This document shows, piece by piece, positions 1-9,000 of a stretch of DNA of 14,190 bases. Location of the stretch: assembly GCA_965197725.1 (NCBI GenBank), contig CBDANQ010000028.1, positions 1 through 14,190 on the forward strand, given 5' to 3'. Made by a program: the position numbers. Numbering within the stretch: position 1 is the first letter of the stretch; every line of letters starts with the position of its first letter. The stretch is from Longimicrobiales bacterium. GTDB taxonomy: Bacteria; Gemmatimonadota; Gemmatimonadetes; Longimicrobiales; Gaopeijiaceae.

Positions 1-3000
1 CAGCGTGATGAGCGCGAACACCAGCACCGCGCCCCAGATGGCGGTGGCCGAGTAGGAGACCAGGAGCAGCCGGGTGAACTCCTTGGCCAGCTTGTCGAAG
101 CGCTCTTCCTTGTTGACCATCCCGATCAACTCTGCGACCACGGCGAACATCGGCACGCCGAGCACGAAAGCGGCGAAGAAGAGATGGAGCTGCGCGGCGA
201 TCCACACCGCCGCCCGCGATCCGATGAGGGGGAAGTCACCGTACTCGCGCGACGTGTAGCCCTGAGCGAGCAGCGGATCGGCCAGGAGCGCGAGCGCGGA
301 TACCACGGCACCCACGCACAGCAACGGGAACGCCGTCCGCCGCAGGGTTCGAGCGAGCGAGAGACGCTCAGACATCGGTGGTTTCTCCCTGTGAGCCTTC
401 TCGCTCTCCCTGTGAGCCCTTTCCGACGTCCGAACGGAGGAAGAAGGGGAGCTTCTTGGAGAAGTCCACGGGCATCGAGCGACGCACTTCAGCCATGACT
501 TCGAGGTCCACTGCGGGGTAACCGCGCTTTCTCGCGAACTCTTCGACGCGGCTGGTAACGACGCCCCGAACGAAGCTCGGAATCCGCTCTAGGCGTTGCC
601 GCGCCTCGGGCGTCCACACGAGCGCGGTTTCGGTCGCCTGACCGTACGCCAACGGGCGCTGGCGCTTGACGACCGCCCGATCGCCCGGCGGGTCGTACGC
701 ACACGACTCGTCGCTTCCCAGCGGGTCACCGGACTGGGCGTACGCGCGAGCCCGACACCCTCCGCAGACCTCGCGGTACTCACAGCGCCCACACTTGCCT
801 CCGAGCTCGCCCTCGCGCAGCGCGGCGAAGACGGGGGACGACGTCCAGACCTCGCGGAACGACTCGCGCGTGAGATCACCCGCGACCGCCGGGAGATAGG
901 GGCACGGCGTGAGCTTCCCCTCCGGGGTGATGCGACAGTAGTGGACCCCGCATGGGCAGCGCGTCTCGTAATTGAGGAGCCCCGAGTCGACTCCGGCCTC
1001 GAGAACGTGCCGCATCAGCTGTGGCTGGCACTTGGAGCGGACCATGAGACGGCCGCGATACTCCTGCTCGAGCGAGAGCAGCTCGGCCAGCACGTCCTCG
1101 TTCTCGGTCGGCGTCAGCCCCTGCATTCCCTCGCCGCGCCCGGTAGGAACGAGGAAGTACAGGTTGAACGAGACCGCGCCCTTTTCAGCCGTCCAGGCCA
1201 CCAGGTCGGAGAGCTCGTGACGGTTGCCCTTCGTGAGGCTGGTCTGGATGATGAAGTCCAGCTCGTGCTGCACGAGGCGGTCCACCGCGGCAAGCGTTCC
1301 CTCGAGCGCCCCTGCGCCGTGGCGGAAGCGATCGTGATACGTCGGGCTCAGAGAGTCCACGCTCACCGCCACGCCCCGCACGCCTGCCGCCTTCAGAGAC
1401 TCGATGCGCTCGTGCGTGAGGCCGATACCGTTCGTGCCCACCACGACCGTAGCCCCCGCCGAAGCAGCGCGCTCCGCGATGGATTCCAGGTCGTCGCGCA
1501 GCAGGGGCTCGCCCCCACTGAGAATCAGGAGCATCGACGGGTTCACCGCTATCAGCTCGTCGAGAATGCGGAAGCACTCGCGGGTGGGCAGCTCACCCTC
1601 GGTCCCGTGCCAGGCCCCGGCCGAGATGTAGCAGTGTGAGCACTCGAGGTTGCAGCGGCGCGTGAGGTTCCAGGCGACCACGTGCGGAAGGAGTGTTCCT
1701 CCGGCGCTGGTGTCCACCGGGTCGCCCCACGGCAGCGCCGAGCTCGAGGAAGGCGGAAAGTCGATGACCGGAAGCGGGGGCACGGGCGAGGCCGCAGTCA
1801 CTCCGAGGCGCCCTCGTTCTTCATGTACGCCTCGACCGCGGCCTTCGCCTGCTCCGGAGTCGCGGTCTTGAAGTCGATCGGGCACTCCTCCGCGGCCTCG
1901 GCGACGTCGCGGATCGGGCAGCGGGTGACGCCGCTCGCCTTGGCTTCCTCGATGAATCGCCTCATCTCCGGGGTCAGGCCGTCGACACCTTCCGCCGCGG
2001 CCTTGAGCTGCTTGGACTGGAGCTCGCGGAACATCACGAGCATCGTGTCCACGTCGAACTCGTCGGCCTCGATCATCGCGTCTTTGTTCTCGTCCATGAC
2101 GAGCGTCGTGACGCGCCAAAAATCGTGCTCTCGCGCAAATCGCTCCACCGTGTTACGCGCCAGCGGCCGCGCGATGAGCGGCACCGCGCGCAGGCGCTCG
2201 AAGGCCTCGCTGGTCCAGGCGACGGGATCCGCCTCGGTCCGCTCGCGGATCTGCGCATGACCGGTGTACGGGCAAGTCGTGGAGATCATGGGCACGTCCG
2301 CCTCCGGGTCGGCGTCGCTCCCCTCGACGTGCGTCCGCTTCATGGCGTCTTCGGCCTTGACCTCCGCGAGGGCCAGCTCTTCCGCCGTCCCGATGCCCAT
2401 GATGAGCTGCATGTGGGTGGGGAGGAGCTTGGTGATCGCCTCGTCGAGCCGAGCCCCGGTCACGAGCGGCAGTTGGTTGGTGCCGAGGGGCGGAACCGCC
2501 ACCATAGGTGGGTCAGCGCTAGGTGCGGACGTGACGTTGCTCGCCGGTGCGCCGTTGCTCGCCACGTTGTCCTCGCGGTACGTCCCGTTCGCGCCCGCAC
2601 CGTAGTTGTCGAGCACGAACTCTTCCACGGCCCGCCGGGCGATGCCCAGCGCGAAGGGCGGAACCCTGAGGATGCGTACCTCGGCATCCGGCGCCCATTC
2701 GAGGCCGGTTTCGCCGTCCTCCTCGATCCACGGAATGTCCTCGGGCTGGACGTTCTGCGTCCCGACCAGCAGGACGCTGGTGTCGGTGAGGCGAAGGAGG
2801 TTGTCAGCCTGGGAGCCGAGGTCCGTCCCGTCGATCCGATGGCTGCCGTGGCGCGCAATAACGAGCACCGCGGGCTCGATCTCGGCCGCCCAACGGAGGA
2901 TGCAGTCGAAGGGCTTGCCGACCAGGATCTGAGTCTCGACCGGTACGCCCGGGAACTCCTCGGCCATGACCTGCCCGCGCTTCAGGTTGGCCTTGCAGAG

Positions 3001-6000: not shown

Positions 6001-9000
6001 CGTACTCGGCGTAGATGCGCTTGACCATGCCGCGCACGAAGCGGGGAACGTTGTCGAGGCGCTCGGTCGCTTCAGCAGACCAGGTCACGGGTCCGCGAGC
6101 GGCGTGGGGTGTCTCCGTAGCCTCGAAGGCGTCCTCACGAGGCGAGTCCAGACCCATGCGGGTCTGCTGCATCGGCTGCTGCGGAATCGTGCGACCTCCG
6201 ATTTCCACGCCCAGAGAGGTGACCAGCTGCGTCTCCATGGGGTTGGTCAGCAGCGCTATCTCACGCTTGCAAGCGGGGCAGGTGAAGATCACTGAGAGGG
6301 TGCCGTCACCGGGAAGCTGCCGCTCGGCGAAGGCCATGACCTCGTCGCAGGTCAGGCAGAGAAACTTCATGGAGCTGACTTGCGCCCACCGAAGCCTCGT
6401 TCTACTCGATCGGCCAGGGCCCCGAAGGCCTTCCCGAACAGGGAACCGTCGCTCGCGCCCGGGGGGTCGCCCCCGTCGGTACGGGCCCCCATTGCGGGGT
6501 CGAACGGGATCTCTGCCCACAGCTCCAGGCCCGTGGACTCGGTCAGGCGCCGGATACCGTCACCGGAGAAGAGCGGGAGCGGCCGCACCGCACCCGGCGA
6601 AGCGTATCCGGACATGTTGCCCACGACGCCGATCGACTCGACTCCCGCCTCCCGGAGCATAGACACGGACCGCGACACGACCGAGAGCGCCACCTCCGAG
6701 GGAATCGTGACCACGAGGACACCCGCAGGCTTCGGAACCAGGTCGAGGAGCCGCCCGATCTTGTCGGTACCCGGCGGAATGTCGATCAGGAGATAATCCA
6801 GCTCGCCCCAGACGACGTCCGAAAGGAATTCCCGAAGCGCCGCGGCCTCGGTCACGCCCTGCCATACGAAGCGGTCCGAGTCAGGACCTTTCCAGTGGAG
6901 CGGAGCGTCCTCCTTCAGCAGAAGCTCGGTCGAGATCCCCAGCACACCACCGGCCCCCGCCGGTGGCACCACGCCATCGGGACCGTCCACGAGCCTGCTA
7001 TCCAGAAGGCCCATCATACGGCCGAGCGATGGCCCGTTGAGATCCGCATCCAGCACGCCGACGCGAGCGCCGCGACGGGCGAGCGATACTGCGAGGTTGG
7101 CGGTCACCGCGCTCTTGCCGACACCTCCCTTTCCGCTCGCAACAGCGATGATGGCACCGATCGTCTCGAGGCGAGCCGAGACGCGGGCGCGCTGCCCGAG
7201 CACTTGTTCCAGGAGCTCGGACCCCGTCTCATGTGAAACCTCGGCGTACCCCCGAACCTTGCGTGGCTCATGGGCCGCCGGGCCGTCAACGCCCGTCTCC
7301 GTGCGCTCCACTCGCTAGCCGCCGACCGTGGAATCCACACACGGGACCAACTGCGTGCCCGAGGCGTCGAGGACCTCCAGTGCGTCGACCGGACAGGCTT
7401 TGCAAGAGCCCAGGACGTCCTCGTGGGGAGTCCCGCTCGTGTCGGCGCGAAACACCGCGATCCCTTCGTCGTCGAGCTCGAACAGATCGGGCGCAACCTC
7501 GATGCATGTCTCGAAGCCGACGCACAGTAACCGGTCGATCCGGATCGTCACACCTGCGACTTCACGTTCTTGCGAGTCCATCGATCGTCTTCCGGTTTTC
7601 GCGCTGGCCCCTGCCAAGCGCATGTGGGACACCATCGCCACTCGGCATTGGGAAGAAGCGCGGTGATGACCGGACGCAGGATCAGCACGGTGGGCCGAAA
7701 ACAGGCGGGACACTCACGCGCGGGGCGCAGCAGCAGCGCCGCGCCGAACCAGACGAGTCCAACACGCAAGAAAACCAGCCCTCCGAGGACGACTACCGCT
7801 CCTACCGAGACATCCACTCCATCCTCCCTCGTACCGCCAACAGCGGCTCTACGCCGCGCCTTCTACGCTCCCTCCCTCCGCACTCGTGATACGCACACCG
7901 ACCACGCGGAACATGAGCCGCGCTAGCAACGGAAGCAGAATGGCCGCGCCCACCATCGCCAGCGCCACGGACAGGACGGGTCCCAGGAATGTCAGGATGA
8001 CCAGTCGCAGCACTGCGAAAGCCCCCATGAAGGCCGCGTAGTGGAGCAGCAGGCCTGCGATCTGACGCCCGCCCCCTCCTCCTTCTATGTGGATTTCCGC
8101 GCCGCCCAGGTAGAGGGCGGCGAGAATCGGGAACAACGCCAATGCGGGGAGCCAAACGATCACTCGGGTTCTCCTCGGATACGGTCCACTAACCCATCAC
8201 GTACCCGAATCCTAGTACCTGCGCACAGAGGATCACAAGCCGACGCTGCTCCGGATCGTGGCAACCTGCCGATTCGTTCAGCGCCGTCTGCGACGTTCCG
8301 CGAGGCCCCGGGCCAAGGGGCCGACGAGCCCGCCGACGGTGATTCCGATGACGGTGAGGACACCGATCGGGCCTAGGTGCTCGAGTGGATTGACGTCCGA
8401 TATCAGGGCCCCCGACACCGACGCAGCCGCGAAGCCGGCACCCCAGATGAGGGCGCTAGCCAACGTCCACCTGAGCACGCTCTGGGTCCCGGGATCCAGT
8501 TCACTCCAGCGCATTCGCATTAGGCGACAGCTTCGCGTAGCACGCCCATCAGCGCGTCCACGTCTTCGAGCGGCACGTCATCGTCGAAGCGAGGACCGAA
8601 GTACGCGAGGGACACCGAGTAGGGGCCGAGCAGCCATTTGTACGTCGCGCAGATGAGCGCGTCGGGCTGCACCGCCTCGACGTCGAAAGGCATCGCCTCG
8701 GAGGCTCGCGGCAACGGGCCCATGTACGCGCAGTTGAAGTAGTGTGCGTCGCGCGGTAGCTGGAAGGCTTCGCGCTGGCGGGTGAGTGCTGGAAGGGCAG
8801 CCGTCAGTGGAGCTAGGCGAGGCCTATATGGAGCCGGCACGAGGTCGAGGTTGAAATCGCATCGGTGGTACCTGAGTCGGCCCTGCCGGGATCCGATGCC
8901 AGCACGTGGCTTCCGGTCCACATCGACTAACTCGTGCACCTCGTCGATCACGTCGGCATAAGCTCCGACTTCGAGGGGGGAGGTGGAGTAGAGGGTTGGA

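What a model noticed while it worked through the whole genome (the two positions that open the first line are those of the whole stretch)
1..8723. AhbD-like radical SAM / PCP_red operon welded to a quinol-site-less CydA-like oxidase gene
An operon of ferredoxin, Mrp-type Fe-S carrier, three proteins with the tetrapyrrole-binding PCP_red domain of protochlorophyllide reductase (one fused to an AhbD-like radical SAM/SPASM enzyme, one to tandem Usp domains) and an ABC exporter runs straight into the only cytochrome-bd-like (cydA-like, no cydB) gene of the genome. I read it as a dedicated pathway that makes or inserts a modified (chlorin-type, heme d-like) haem for this orphan CydA-like oxidase. 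That would be the first biosynthetic route tied to the haem cofactor of the bd superfamily.
Evidence so far: Genes g00882-g00893. The genome has the coproporphyrin heme b route incl. ChdC g02455, so AhbD is not needed for heme b. In 75 of 78 related loci with >=700 bp downstream the rSAM-PCP_red gene is followed within 1.5 kb by the cydA-like gene; same order in 5 of 5 relatives read in full. Among 60 other genomes of the order the 16 with an orthologous rSAM gene (E<=1e-190, call 62) are exactly the 16 with the cydA-like gene (E<=1e-273, call 126); 44 have neither (3 have weak rSAM paralogues). One of the 16, G122, is flagged unpublished. In 43 distant loci (40-46% identity; Poribacteria, Nitrospinota, anammox, Rhodothermales, Latescibacterota, Vicinamibacterales, Alphaproteobacteria) Usp-PCP_red, [...]
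(Added by a program. Inside this text positions count along the whole contig: contig position 1 is position 1 of the stretch shown here. "Call 12" and the like, gene names such as g00115 and contig names such as C1 are that model's own, and its searches are not shown. The text may have been shortened before it was handed on; [...] marks where a part breaks off. The agent that wrote the report below was given it as the finding of a first reader that could run no searches.)

Follow-up and report, generated by a model that had tools for sequence, protein, structure and literature searches.

The report
Haem-enzyme module tied to bd-like oxidase
A relative of the oxygen-independent haem synthase AhbD, with helper proteins that share a small domain known from a chlorophyll enzyme, is found almost only in bacteria that carry one uncharacterised 'bd-like' respiratory oxidase, so it most likely finishes or delivers haem for that oxidase.

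Summary
The minus strand carries ferredoxin, an Mrp-like ATPase, a Cys4-PCP_red protein, an ABC-2 exporter, Usp-Usp-PCP_red, a radical SAM/SPASM-PCP_red enzyme and the first 125 codons of a cydA-like gene.

I reproduced the 75-of-78 adjacency. In relatives, and on own-genome contig C45, the train continues into two cytochromes c, a cytochrome c/EB_dh protein and an A-type oxidase. This is the 'TO_1'/OR-N module already named in print.

- **Phyletic link:** over 484 genomes of four phyla, the radical SAM orthologue and the cydA-like orthologue are both present in 140, both missing in 335, and discordant in 9. In anammox and Nitrospira genomes they lie far apart.
- **Distinct clade:** the enzyme forms its own clade beside AhbD. 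Brocadia keeps a canonical AhbD as well.
- **PCP_red:** Nitrospinota fuse it to a ChdC-like protein.

The link to the oxidase is therefore strong. The 'haem d-like chlorin' chemistry is untested. Genomes with only a canonical-type CydA match lack the module, apart from one contig-end fragment. The ABC exporter is not core, and the window's Mrp lacks its CxxC motif.

The scan noted this module three times before on other DNA.

The parts
1..375 (-). First 125 codons of a cydA-like (OR-N type, bd-like) oxidase subunit, cut by the contig end.
   Evidence: PF01654 27.8 bits. 90% identical to residues 1-125 of the 598-aa L002 orthologue. The orthologue keeps the equivalents of E. coli His19, Glu107 and His186.
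368..1801 (-). Radical SAM/SPASM enzyme of the AhbD radiation with a C-terminal PCP_red domain.
   Evidence: Radical_SAM 85.7, SPASM 32.1 and PCP_red 57 bits. NirJ2 277.6, AhbD 264.8 and TIGR04053 249.6 bits, all below their cut-offs. Forms its own clade with SH-aLRT 100. AF2 model pLDDT 86.7. Both ends overlap the neighbouring genes.
1798..3903 (-). Tandem Usp protein with PCP_red domains (701 aa).
   Evidence: Usp 109 bits and PCP_red 43.9 bits in 2 stretches. Present upstream of the radical SAM gene in 62 of 65 loci with room. The same pair occurs in a Nitrospira-like genome (L174).
4083..4111 (-). Promoter-like site in the 308-bp gap upstream of the Usp-PCP_red gene.
   Evidence: TTGACA-17-CATACT, 10 of 12 matches, against 0.0 expected in shuffles. 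CCTTGACA is shared by 22 of 63 upstream regions of relatives. This is a consensus match only.
4212..4925 (-). ABC-2 type permease.
   Evidence: ABC2_membrane 36.1 bits. Present in only 15 of 49 related loci with room.
4922..5917 (-). ABC transporter ATPase.
   Evidence: ABC_tran 84.6 bits. Best NCBIfam match is DrrA-like, 155.6 bits, below its cut-off. Present in 16 of 49 loci.
5921..6370 (-). Small protein with an N-terminal Cys4 (zinc-ribbon or rubredoxin-like) part and a C-terminal PCP_red domain.
   Evidence: PCP_red 52.6 bits. Matches BchB positions 444-511 of 512. Cys5, 8, 31 and 34 are kept in 71-73 of 73 rows. Present in 50 of 51 loci. ATGA overlap with Mrp.
6367..7311 (-). Mrp/NUBPL-family P-loop ATPase that lacks the cluster-bridging CxxC pair in this genome.
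   Evidence: ParA/NUBPL 210 bits. MrpORP 193.7 bits against a cut-off of 450. Ser238 and Ala241 stand where 45 of 70 orthologues have Cys. Present in 47 of 49 loci.
7315..7581 (-). Small single-cluster [4Fe-4S]-type ferredoxin.
   Evidence: Fer4_13 38.5 and Fer4_15 37.4 bits. Present in 46 of 49 loci.
7849..8163 (-). 104-aa membrane protein of no known family. It lies upstream of the operon in some relatives.
   Evidence: No Pfam or NCBIfam match. tblastn matches at the same place in L002, L009, L017, L022 and L046. Two hydrophobic segments.
8276..8801 (-). Remnants of a ChdC-like (Chlor_dismutase family) gene and a class-V aminotransferase gene that are intact in L002.
   Evidence: blastn against L002: window 8276-8514 matches L002 2286-2524, and L002 2525-3329 (most of the ChdC-like gene) is missing. 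Only three pieces of the aminotransferase gene remain.

Best explanation
The window holds the cytoplasmic accessory module of a bd-like terminal oxidase. The oxidase is the OR-N family of Murali et al., and its four-gene unit is the 'TO_1' of Yu and Leadbetter: a bd-like subunit, two cytochromes c and a periplasmic cytochrome b/c.

The core of the module is a radical SAM/SPASM enzyme from a separate branch of the AhbD haem-synthase radiation. I infer that it acts on an iron tetrapyrrole, most simply by turning coproheme propionates into vinyls without oxygen to give haem b.

Its own PCP_red domain, and the PCP_red domains of the Usp protein and the Cys4 protein, would hold or cap the tetrapyrrole and pass it to the oxidase apoprotein. 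This is what the homologous C-terminal part of BchB does for protochlorophyllide (recalled). The ferredoxin would supply the electron for SAM cleavage. The P-loop ATPase, translationally coupled to the Cys4-PCP_red protein, would drive or load that hand-off.

Shown: the gene content, the clade, and the phyletic and positional link to the oxidase module. Inferred: the substrate, the product, the hand-off and the acceptor subunit.
For: **Neighbourhood.**
- 75 of 78 Gemmatimonadota-type loci have the cydA-like gene right after the radical SAM gene.
- Every locus with room also has the next genes: cyt c 62/62 and 58/58, cyt c-EB_dh 55/55, a CarboxypepD_reg-domain protein 54/54, COX2 54/54, COX1 50/50, COX3 48/48.
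- The own genome continues on contig C45.

**Rearranged but still linked.** In 10 of 43 distant contigs from 8 differently labelled lineages, the four-gene module lies beside the radical SAM gene in a different order.

**Whole-genome co-occurrence** (both / neither / cydA-only / rSAM-only).
- Gemmatimonadota 41/109/0/1, where the one is G057, a fragment at a contig end.
- Nitrospinota 55/3/2/1.
- Planctomycetota 10/140/1/0.
- Nitrospirota 34/82/3/2.
- In complete anammox and Nitrospira-like genomes the two genes are at least 0.26 Mb apart.
- Natural control: 23 of the 140 Planctomycetota genomes without the oxidase have a plain AhbD-like gene, and none has the PCP_red type.

**Not the housekeeping enzyme.** Six of 6 anammox genomes carry both a plain AhbD-like gene and the PCP_red type. 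Brocadia's plain copy scores 498 bits on TIGR04545. The own genome has ChdC.

**Tetrapyrrole theme.**
- The best models are the two AhbD-type ones.
- The nearest non-PCP relatives are AhbD, NirJ2 or TIGR04053 proteins, some fused to AhbA/B or to ferrochelatase.
- The PCP_red clade has SH-aLRT 100 and sits next to the AhbD clade.
- PCP_red is fused to a ChdC-like domain in 119 of the 120 listed Nitrospinota relatives.
- A HemY gene follows the radical SAM gene in L113.
- A ChdC-like gene lies upstream in L002, L009 and L017.

**PCP_red is specific to the module.**
- All 4 own-genome matches lie in this window.
- In 151 Gemmatimonadota genomes it is found only in the 42 module-bearing genomes and in 4 genomes with BchB-sized matches.
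- PCP_red genes lie inside the oxidase clusters of Brocadia (L173) and a Nitrospira-like genome (L172).

**Precedent.** HemW, a radical SAM protein, is a haem chaperone for NarI (PMC10114771, HemW section).
Against: - No chemistry of any kind. The substrate and product are inferred from family membership only.
- The enzyme scores below every curated cut-off and is not inside the AhbD clade.
- Co-occurrence cannot say which protein of the four-gene module is the client.
- Related genomes are not independent. In Nitrospinota nearly all genomes have both genes, so that phylum adds little.
- Nine genomes are discordant. All are in phyla where no completeness figures were given.
- Three Acidobacteriota-labelled loci (L047, L052, L069) carry the enzyme next to unrelated genes. 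I did not search their genomes for the oxidase.
- One Nitrospirota MAG (G367, 1.8 Mb) has the enzyme and no oxidase match.
- That the PCP_red domain caps a tetrapyrrole in BchB is recalled, not tested here.
- The window's ATPase lacks the CxxC pair, and 25 of 70 orthologues do too, so its role is open.
- The Usp domains are unexplained.
Confidence: 0.55

Rival explanations
1. One reading: the enzyme makes a modified haem (chlorin-type or haem d-like, or another non-b haem) that the active site of the bd-like oxidase needs. The PCP_red proteins carry it there.
For: - The module tracks the oxidase even where a housekeeping coproheme decarboxylase exists: ChdC in the own genome and canonical AhbD in 6 of 6 anammox genomes. 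A second, distinct chemistry would explain why both are kept.
- The enzyme is a separate clade with its own fused domain.
- Relatives in this radiation do different side-chain chemistry, as with NirJ and AhbC (PMC10114771, AhbC/AhbD and NirJ sections).
- The cydA-like protein keeps the His19 equivalent and has three further invariant His residues.
Against: - No haem analysis of any OR-N enzyme was seen in the papers read.
- Genomes with only a canonical-type CydA match lack the module: 34 of 35 in the Gemmatimonadota sample. The exception is G057, with a contig-end fragment. So haem d of ordinary bd oxidases does not come from it.
- Known AhbD chemistry, propionate to vinyl, does not give a dihydroxychlorin.
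- PCP_red is also fused to a ChdC-like protein. That points to ordinary coproheme decarboxylation rather than new chemistry.
Confidence: 0.2
2. The enzyme is simply an oxygen-independent coproheme decarboxylase isoenzyme (AhbD-type) kept for low-oxygen growth. It travels with, or is co-regulated with, a low-oxygen respiratory island and has no specific client.
For: - AhbD is reported in coproporphyrin-pathway organisms that lack the other AHB enzymes (PMC13564367, sections 6 and 8.3 passages).
- Haloferax uses ChdC aerobically and AhbD anaerobically (PMC5746218 abstract).
- The own genome has HemY, ChdC and HemH.
- Nitrospina, the Poribacteria genome and Neptunicoccus have no other AhbD-like gene above 100 bits.
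- In Nitrospina and Brocadia the gene sits among housekeeping-type genes.
- Usp domains often mark stress or hypoxia genes (recalled).
Against: - Only 3 of the 338 genomes without the oxidase orthologue have the PCP_red-type enzyme, while plain AhbD-like genes are common there.
- Strictly anaerobic anammox bacteria keep it beside a canonical AhbD.
- PCP_red genes lie inside oxidase clusters.
- No FNR-like box is enriched upstream: 2 of 63 regions with at most 2 mismatches, against 30 of 1260 shuffles.
Confidence: 0.12
3. The module does not handle a free tetrapyrrole. Instead the SPASM enzyme modifies a protein or peptide, for example a cross-link in an oxidase subunit or in the PCP_red proteins, or it matures another cofactor. 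PCP_red would then be a recognition element.
For: - The closest solved folds are peptide- and protein-modifying SPASM enzymes: PqqE, SkfB, SuiB and anSME.
- ABC-2 exporters accompany many peptide-maturation systems (recalled), and one is present here.
- PCP_red occurs on several otherwise unrelated proteins, as a recognition tag might.
Against: - No AhbD or NirJ structure exists in the PDB copy, so the fold matches merely reflect what has been solved.
- Sequence models place the enzyme with AhbD/NirJ2 at 265-278 bits, against 100-150 bits for peptide maturases.
- The exporter is missing in about two thirds of loci.
- The links to ChdC, HemY and ferrochelatase fusions all point to haem.
Confidence: 0.06

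Closest known systems
AhbD (radical SAM haem b synthase, TIGR04545) and its Firmicute counterpart 'NirJ2' (TIGR04055)
   Same: - CX3CX2C radical SAM motif, GGEP motif and SPASM cysteines.
- These two are the best-scoring models.
- The nearest relatives without PCP_red are AhbD-type proteins.
   Different: - Scores of 265 and 278 bits against cut-offs of 500.
- A separate clade.
- Carries a C-terminal PCP_red domain, up to 4 copies in some lineages.
- Coexists with canonical AhbD in anammox genomes.
- Tracks one oxidase rather than haem synthesis in general.
TO_1 complex / OR-N family of bd-like oxidases (Murali et al. preprint 10.1101/2021.01.16.426971; Yu and Leadbetter preprint 10.1101/2021.11.15.468770; PMC10839748)
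   Same: The downstream genes match the published description: a bd-like subunit without CydB, two cytochromes c and a periplasmic cytochrome b of the EB_dh type. The single cydA-like gene fits what is written of OR-N2.
   Different: - The passages I read do not mention the accessory radical SAM/PCP_red genes.
- The subfamily was not assigned here.
- In Gemmatimonadota the module is joined to an A-type haem-copper oxidase operon.
HemW (radical SAM haem chaperone for NarI)
   Same: A radical SAM protein derived from a haem-synthesis enzyme that serves a membrane respiratory cytochrome (PMC10114771, HemW section). The proposed mode of action is alike.
   Different: HemW is a CgdH/HemN relative without a SPASM domain or PCP_red. 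This is no family relation, only an analogy.
ChdC/HemQ coproheme decarboxylase
   Same: The same presumed substrate. In Nitrospinota the ChdC-like protein carries the same PCP_red domain. A ChdC-like gene adjoins the operon in L002, L009 and L017.
   Different: An unrelated fold and oxygen- or peroxide-dependent chemistry. The copy beside this window's operon has been deleted.
C-terminal domain of DPOR subunit BchB/ChlB (Pfam PCP_red, PF08369)
   Same: The three proteins match the last ~70 residues of BchB.
   Different: No nitrogenase-like BchN/BchB core is present here. That this part of BchB lies over the bound pigment is recalled, not tested.
CydDC, the ABC exporter needed for cytochrome bd assembly in E. 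coli (recalled)
   Same: An ABC exporter encoded with a bd-family oxidase.
   Different: Here it is an ABC-2 type pair, not a CydDC homologue by any model that scored, and it is present in only 16 of 49 loci.

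Membership tests
AhbD haem b synthase (TIGR04545) | Radical SAM CX3CX2C motif and SAM-binding GGEP motif | tested here: met
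   C-NLE-C-SH-C and GGEP are read in the sequence. The three Cys are nearly invariant and GGEP is invariant in 65 sequences.
AhbD haem b synthase (TIGR04545) | C-terminal SPASM/auxiliary-cluster cysteines | tested here: met
   SPASM 32.1 bits. Cys281, 299, 336, 339, 345, 348 and 366 are nearly invariant.
AhbD haem b synthase (TIGR04545) | Score at or above the curated equivalog cut-off | tested here: not met
   264.8 bits against a cut-off of 500. Orthologues in other phyla score 298-335 bits.
AhbD haem b synthase (TIGR04545) | Branches inside the clade of high-scoring AhbD sequences | tested here: not met
   The PCP_red-type sequences form their own clade of 36 rows (SH-aLRT 100). It is joined to the AhbD/TIGR04053 clade only at support 80 (quick IQ-TREE search).
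AhbD haem b synthase (TIGR04545) | Converts coproheme to haem b | not testable with these tools
   Needs an enzyme assay.
NirJ (haem d1 synthesis, TIGR04051) | Score at or above the curated cut-off | tested here: not met
   177.3 bits against 515.
Quinol-oxidising cytochrome bd subunit I (CydA) | Haem ligands His19 and His186 and channel residue Glu107 (E. coli numbering) | tested here: met
   They align to His64, His232 and Glu151 of the L002 orthologue. All three are kept in at least 97% of 87 sequences and are invariant in the 66-row alignment. Only His64 lies in the part held by the window.
Quinol-oxidising cytochrome bd subunit I (CydA) | First channel glutamate (Glu99) | tested here: not met
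   Tyr or a gap stands at that place in the alignments to 6rko and 5doq.
Quinol-oxidising cytochrome bd subunit I (CydA) | CydB partner subunit | tested here: not met
   No PF02322 match in the own genome, which is 88.9% complete. None was found among the L002 neighbours scanned.
Quinol-oxidising cytochrome bd subunit I (CydA) | Q-loop / quinol site | tested here: inconclusive
   Only about the first 300 residues align to solved CydA chains. The absence of the site is stated for OR-N by Murali et al. and was not shown here.
OR-N / TO_1 bd-like oxidase module | bd-like subunit with two cytochromes c and a periplasmic EB_dh-type cytochrome b | tested here: met
   Pfam on the L002 neighbours. The order is conserved in all loci with room. 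The own genome continues on contig C45.
OR-N / TO_1 bd-like oxidase module | Assignment to a subfamily (OR-N1 or OR-N2) with the authors' HMMs | not tested
   The preprint's supplements are closed. The single cydA-like gene per operon fits what is written of OR-N2, which is an inference.
Mrp/ApbC Fe-S cluster carrier | P-loop (GKGGVGKS) | tested here: met
   Read in the sequence. Conserved in 70 rows.
Mrp/ApbC Fe-S cluster carrier | Cluster-bridging CxxC pair | tested here: not met
   The window protein has Ser238 and Ala241. 45 of 70 orthologues have both Cys. That this pair bridges the cluster is recalled.
PCP_red (PF08369) | Score over the Pfam gathering cut-off | tested here: met
   57, 43.9 and 52.6 bits against 32.5 in the three proteins.

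The most novel reading that the evidence does not exclude
The PCP_red-type radical SAM enzyme makes a haem that is neither b nor the haem d of ordinary bd oxidases. One possibility is a differently decarboxylated or otherwise side-chain-altered iron porphyrin. This would be the active-site cofactor of OR-N oxidases, the main terminal oxidases of Nitrospira, Nitrospina and Ca. Manganitrophus. PCP_red would then be a general tetrapyrrole hand-off domain used from chlorophyll synthesis to respiration.
Probability: 0.2. Interest if true: 0.9.

Novelty: new variant of a known kind. Interest (0 to 1): 0.72.

Why it matters
OR-N bd-like oxidases are thought to be the main oxygen reductases of key nitrite and manganese oxidisers, yet they have never been purified or characterised. 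A conserved accessory module that tracks them across at least four phyla offers several things:

- a handle on their cofactor content and assembly;
- a set of genes that must probably be co-expressed for heterologous production;
- a testable new branch of the AhbD family;
- a first role for the PCP_red domain outside chlorophyll synthesis.

It also makes a direct experiment possible: what does this enzyme do to coproheme or haem?

I found no paper that links these genes. The searches were made, over the held library only. The supplements of the Murali preprint could not be seen and may show the operon context.

Tried and rejected
- **Complex prediction.** The cydA-like orthologue with the Cys4-PCP_red protein (alignments A3 and A4) returned 'no answer'. 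It says nothing either way.
- **Fold search.** The AF2 model returned only generic SPASM enzymes.
- **FNR-type box** upstream of the Usp-PCP_red gene: not enriched.
- **Rfam scan** of the window: nothing.
- **The search for homologous proteins** with the enzyme listed only close relatives. The search of 50%-identity representatives was needed to reach distant ones.
- **First literature search for 'bd-like'** returned medical papers and was wasted.
- **Search for haem d biosynthesis** gave only haem d1 and catalase papers by title. That haem d synthesis for bd oxidases is unsolved therefore remains my recollection.
- **Client is the adjacent A-type oxidase: rejected.** The enzyme is in 56 of 61 Nitrospinota genomes, while caa3-type oxidases are reported in only several Nitrospinota MAGs (PMC10839748 passage). 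In anammox genomes no COX genes lay in the one cluster read (L173).
- **Greedy ORF calls** on the high-GC loci L117 and L120 were unreliable, so I did not send them to Pfam.
- **Not searched:** the genomes of L047, L052 and L069 for the oxidase.

Full report
**What is in the window**

All genes of the finding lie on the minus strand. The domains below are from Pfam and NCBIfam.

| Coordinates | Gene | Notes |
|---|---|---|
| 7315-7581 | Ferredoxin | Single-cluster type |
| 6367-7311 | Mrp/NUBPL-type P-loop ATPase | Lacks CxxC here |
| 5921-6370 | Small protein, four invariant Cys plus C-terminal PCP_red | |
| 4922-5917 | ABC ATPase | |
| 4212-4925 | ABC-2 permease | |
| 3904-4211 | Gap of 308 bp | Promoter-like site |
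| 1798-3903 | Tandem Usp protein with PCP_red domains | 701 aa |
| 368-1801 | Radical SAM/SPASM enzyme with C-terminal PCP_red | |
| 1-375 | First 125 codons of a cydA-like gene | Cut by the contig start |

- Several gene junctions overlap: ATGA, GTGA, and 8 nt at the junction of the enzyme and cydA.
- The gap holds one promoter-like site. CCTTGACA recurs upstream of the Usp gene in 22 of 63 relatives. Two transcription units are therefore plausible.
- The own genome is 88.9% complete. It has one PF01654 match and no cydB match. A HemY, ChdC-family and ferrochelatase group sits on contig C59.

In the 91%-identical relative L002 the cydA-like gene is 598 aa. It is followed by these genes:
- a dihaem cytochrome c;
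- a second cytochrome c;
- a protein with two cytochrome c domains plus an EB_dh haem b domain;
- a CarboxypepD_reg-domain protein;
- COX2, COX1 and COX3.

Across the 80 related loci:
- Every locus with room has the rest of the train: 62/62, 58/58, 55/55, 54/54, 54/54, 50/50 and 48/48.
- Upstream, Usp-PCP_red is present in 62/65, Cys4-PCP_red in 50/51, Mrp in 47/49 and ferredoxin in 46/49.
- The ABC ATPase is present in only 16/49 and the permease in 15/49.

The three misses (L047, L052, L069) carry Acidobacteriota or Thermoanaerobaculia labels and have the enzyme beside unrelated genes.

The own genome continues on contig C45 with the tail of the second cytochrome c, the EB_dh protein, the CarboxypepD_reg protein and COX2.

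The four-gene unit matches the 'TO_1' complex described for Nitrospirota: a bd-like oxidase, two cytochromes c and a periplasmic cytochrome b (passages). It also matches the OR-N family of Murali et al. (passages). Both are uncharacterised biochemically (passages).

**What the enzyme is**

- *Model scores.* The best models are NirJ2 (277.6 bits) and AhbD (264.8), then TIGR04053 (249.6). All are below their cut-offs. NirJ and the AhbC-type models score 129-177 bits. I recall, but did not check, that 'NirJ2' proteins were renamed AhbD.
- *Relatives.* A search of 1.84 billion representatives gave 872 hits at E <= 1e-30. Forty-four of the best 150 carry PCP_red, and some have two to four copies. 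The relatives without PCP_red are AhbD, NirJ2 or TIGR04053 types, some fused to AhbA/B or to ferrochelatase.
- *Tree.* This was 117 rows, 342 columns, a quick IQ-TREE search with LG+G4, rooted on two Brocadia AhbC/NirJ-like proteins. The PCP_red-type sequences form one clade of 36 rows: 33 with the domain and 3 in which I detected none. Its SH-aLRT is 100. It sits next to the AhbD/TIGR04053 clade (49 rows, support 99), but their union has only support 80.
- *Structure.* The AF2 model is confident: pLDDT 86.7 and pTM 0.85, with the PCP_red helices at about 87-97. Solved relatives are only generic SPASM enzymes.

This is therefore a new branch of a tetrapyrrole-specific radical SAM radiation, not an AhbD orthologue.

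**Is the link to the oxidase real?**

*Position.* Among 44 distant loci (43 contigs, 38-47% identity), the four-gene oxidase module lies beside the enzyme in 10 contigs, with the order changed so that the module comes first. The 10 contigs are labelled Vicinamibacterales (2), Anammoxibacter, Rhodothermales (2), Rhodospirillaceae, Betaproteobacteria, Bacteroidota, Binatia and Nannocystaceae. In a Rokubacteria genome the oxidase gene lies 14 kb upstream, beyond the fetched flank.

*Whole genomes.*

| Phylum | Genomes | Both | Neither | cydA-only | rSAM-only |
|---|---|---|---|---|---|
| Gemmatimonadota | 151 | 41 | 109 | 0 | 1 (G057) |
| Nitrospinota | 61 | 55 | 3 | 2 | 1 |
| Planctomycetota | 151 | 10 | 140 | 1 | 0 |
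| Nitrospirota | 121 | 34 | 82 | 3 | 2 |

- In G057 the enzyme is cut by a contig end and three PCP_red matches lie on the same contig. I counted it as 'neither' in the summary totals.
- The three Nitrospinota genomes with neither gene carry plain AhbD/AhbC-like pairs instead.
- Two of the 34 'both' genomes in Nitrospirota are counted from fragments. G481 is ambiguous.
- In complete anammox and Nitrospira-like genomes the two genes are at least 0.26 Mb apart, and about 1 Mb apart in two anammox genomes.
- Five of 5 further distant genomes, in which the genes are not adjacent, have the oxidase orthologue elsewhere. So do 4 of 5 in a second set; the miss is a 1.8-Mb MAG.
- Plain AhbD-like genes serve as a control. 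They occur in 23 of the 140 oxidase-free Planctomycetota genomes, while the PCP_red type occurs in none.

*Caveats.* Related genomes are not independent. Completeness is unknown outside Gemmatimonadota. In Gemmatimonadota the genes are inherited as one block. One 'neither' genome (G062) is flagged unpublished.

**PCP_red is the thread**

- In the own genome all four PCP_red matches lie in this window.
- In the 151 Gemmatimonadota genomes the domain is found only in the 42 genomes with the module and in 4 genomes with BchB-sized matches of 71-73 bits. The latter are presumably phototrophs, which is an inference.
- In Brocadia a Usp-Usp-PCP_red gene sits inside the oxidase cluster, although the enzyme is on another contig.
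- In a Nitrospira-like genome a 165-aa double-PCP_red gene lies between the two cydA-like genes, and a Usp-PCP_red gene followed by the enzyme gene sits about 2 Mb away.
- In Nitrospinota the Chlor_dismutase-family protein carries an N-terminal PCP_red domain. This holds in 119 of the 120 listed relatives. Its best NCBIfam model is HemQ, at 135 bits, below the cut-off.
- In a Neptunicoccus MAG the order is small PCP_red gene, enzyme, HemY-family gene (250 bits against a cut-off of 98).
- A ChdC-like gene lies just upstream of the operon in L002, L009 and L017.

PCP_red thus accompanies both unrelated kinds of coproheme decarboxylase. This points to coproheme or haem as the ligand or to a shared partner.

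**Why it is not just a spare anaerobic isoenzyme**

That argument is weak, because AhbD is a known oxygen-independent alternative in coproporphyrin-pathway organisms (PMC13564367 passages; PMC5746218 abstract).
- The distribution argues for a dedicated role all the same. The enzyme is almost never found without the oxidase.
- Six of 6 anammox genomes keep it beside a plain AhbD-like gene. Brocadia's plain copy scores 498 bits on TIGR04545. Brocadia has no ferrochelatase or HemY match and so presumably uses the siroheme route.

**What remains open**

- *Product.* Nothing shows what the product is. Genomes with only a canonical-type CydA match lack the module (34 of 35), so haem d of ordinary bd oxidases is made without it.
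- *Acceptor.* It could be the cydA-like subunit, which keeps the His19, Glu107 and His186 equivalents plus three more invariant His residues. It could equally be the periplasmic haem b/c proteins.
- *ATPase.* The window's Mrp-like ATPase lacks the CxxC pair, which 45 of 70 orthologues have.
- *Usp domains.* These are unexplained.

**Verdict**

- The link between the module and the oxidase is well supported, and I now extend it across phyla.
- The tetrapyrrole role is a good inference.
- The haem d-like chemistry is one possibility among several. I rate it below the simpler reading of dedicated haem b synthesis and hand-off.
- Three earlier findings of this scan on other genomes reached a similar reading. 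I saw them after my own analysis.
- I found no paper that links these genes (held library only).

Noticed in passing
window 8276-8801: Compared with the 91%-identical relative L002, about 805 bp holding most of a ChdC-like (Chlor_dismutase family) gene are deleted, and the class-V aminotransferase gene survives only as three short pieces. The spare ChdC-like gene beside the operon has decayed in this genome.
   Followed up: partly
window 6367-7311: The Mrp/NUBPL-like ATPase has Ser and Ala where 45 of 70 orthologues have the CxxC pair, so the 'Fe-S carrier' label may not hold here.
   Followed up: partly
L171 782-1747 (Nitrospina genome G001): The protein annotated 'chlorite dismutase' in Nitrospinota is a fusion of PCP_red with a ChdC/HemQ-like domain. 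Of the 120 listed relatives, 119 have both domains.
   Followed up: partly
window 10298-11364: Two overlapping minus-strand genes: a DUF6036 nucleotidyltransferase-like protein and an HTH_3 protein. They look like a toxin-antitoxin-style pair.
   Followed up: no
window 8934-10292: The amidohydrolase ORF begins with about 45 residues that match the C-terminal end of a membrane dipeptidase (Peptidase_M19, profile positions 263-305). It may be a chimeric reading frame at a rearrangement junction.
   Followed up: no
L115 and L116 (one Binatia contig): The whole module appears twice as a perfect inverted copy around position ~11,070 of the locus. This is probably an assembly artefact.
   Followed up: no
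G065, G091, G132 (Gemmatimonadota); G002 (Brocadia); G005 (Zetaproteobacteria): A second type of cydA-like gene (50-53% identity) matches in two pieces, residues ~10-450 and ~425-580, within one long open frame of ~670-730 aa. This suggests an insertion relative to the Gemmatimonadota form.
   Followed up: no
L002 11403-13199 and 86 orthologues: Besides the His19 and His186 equivalents, His174, His384 and His533 and six Met residues are at least 97% conserved. These are more candidate metal or haem ligands than canonical CydA has.
   Followed up: no
L096 9347-9856, L103 8895-9428 (Poribacteria): A small CopD-like membrane protein gene lies just upstream of the radical SAM gene in two Poribacteria genomes.
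   Followed up: no
Gemmatimonadota genomes G007, G010, G013, G016, G019, G025, G027, G031, G035, G037: One family of the phylum (f10) has plain AhbD-like genes (32-38% identity, ~385 aa, no PCP_red) and no bd-like oxidase orthologue.
   Followed up: no
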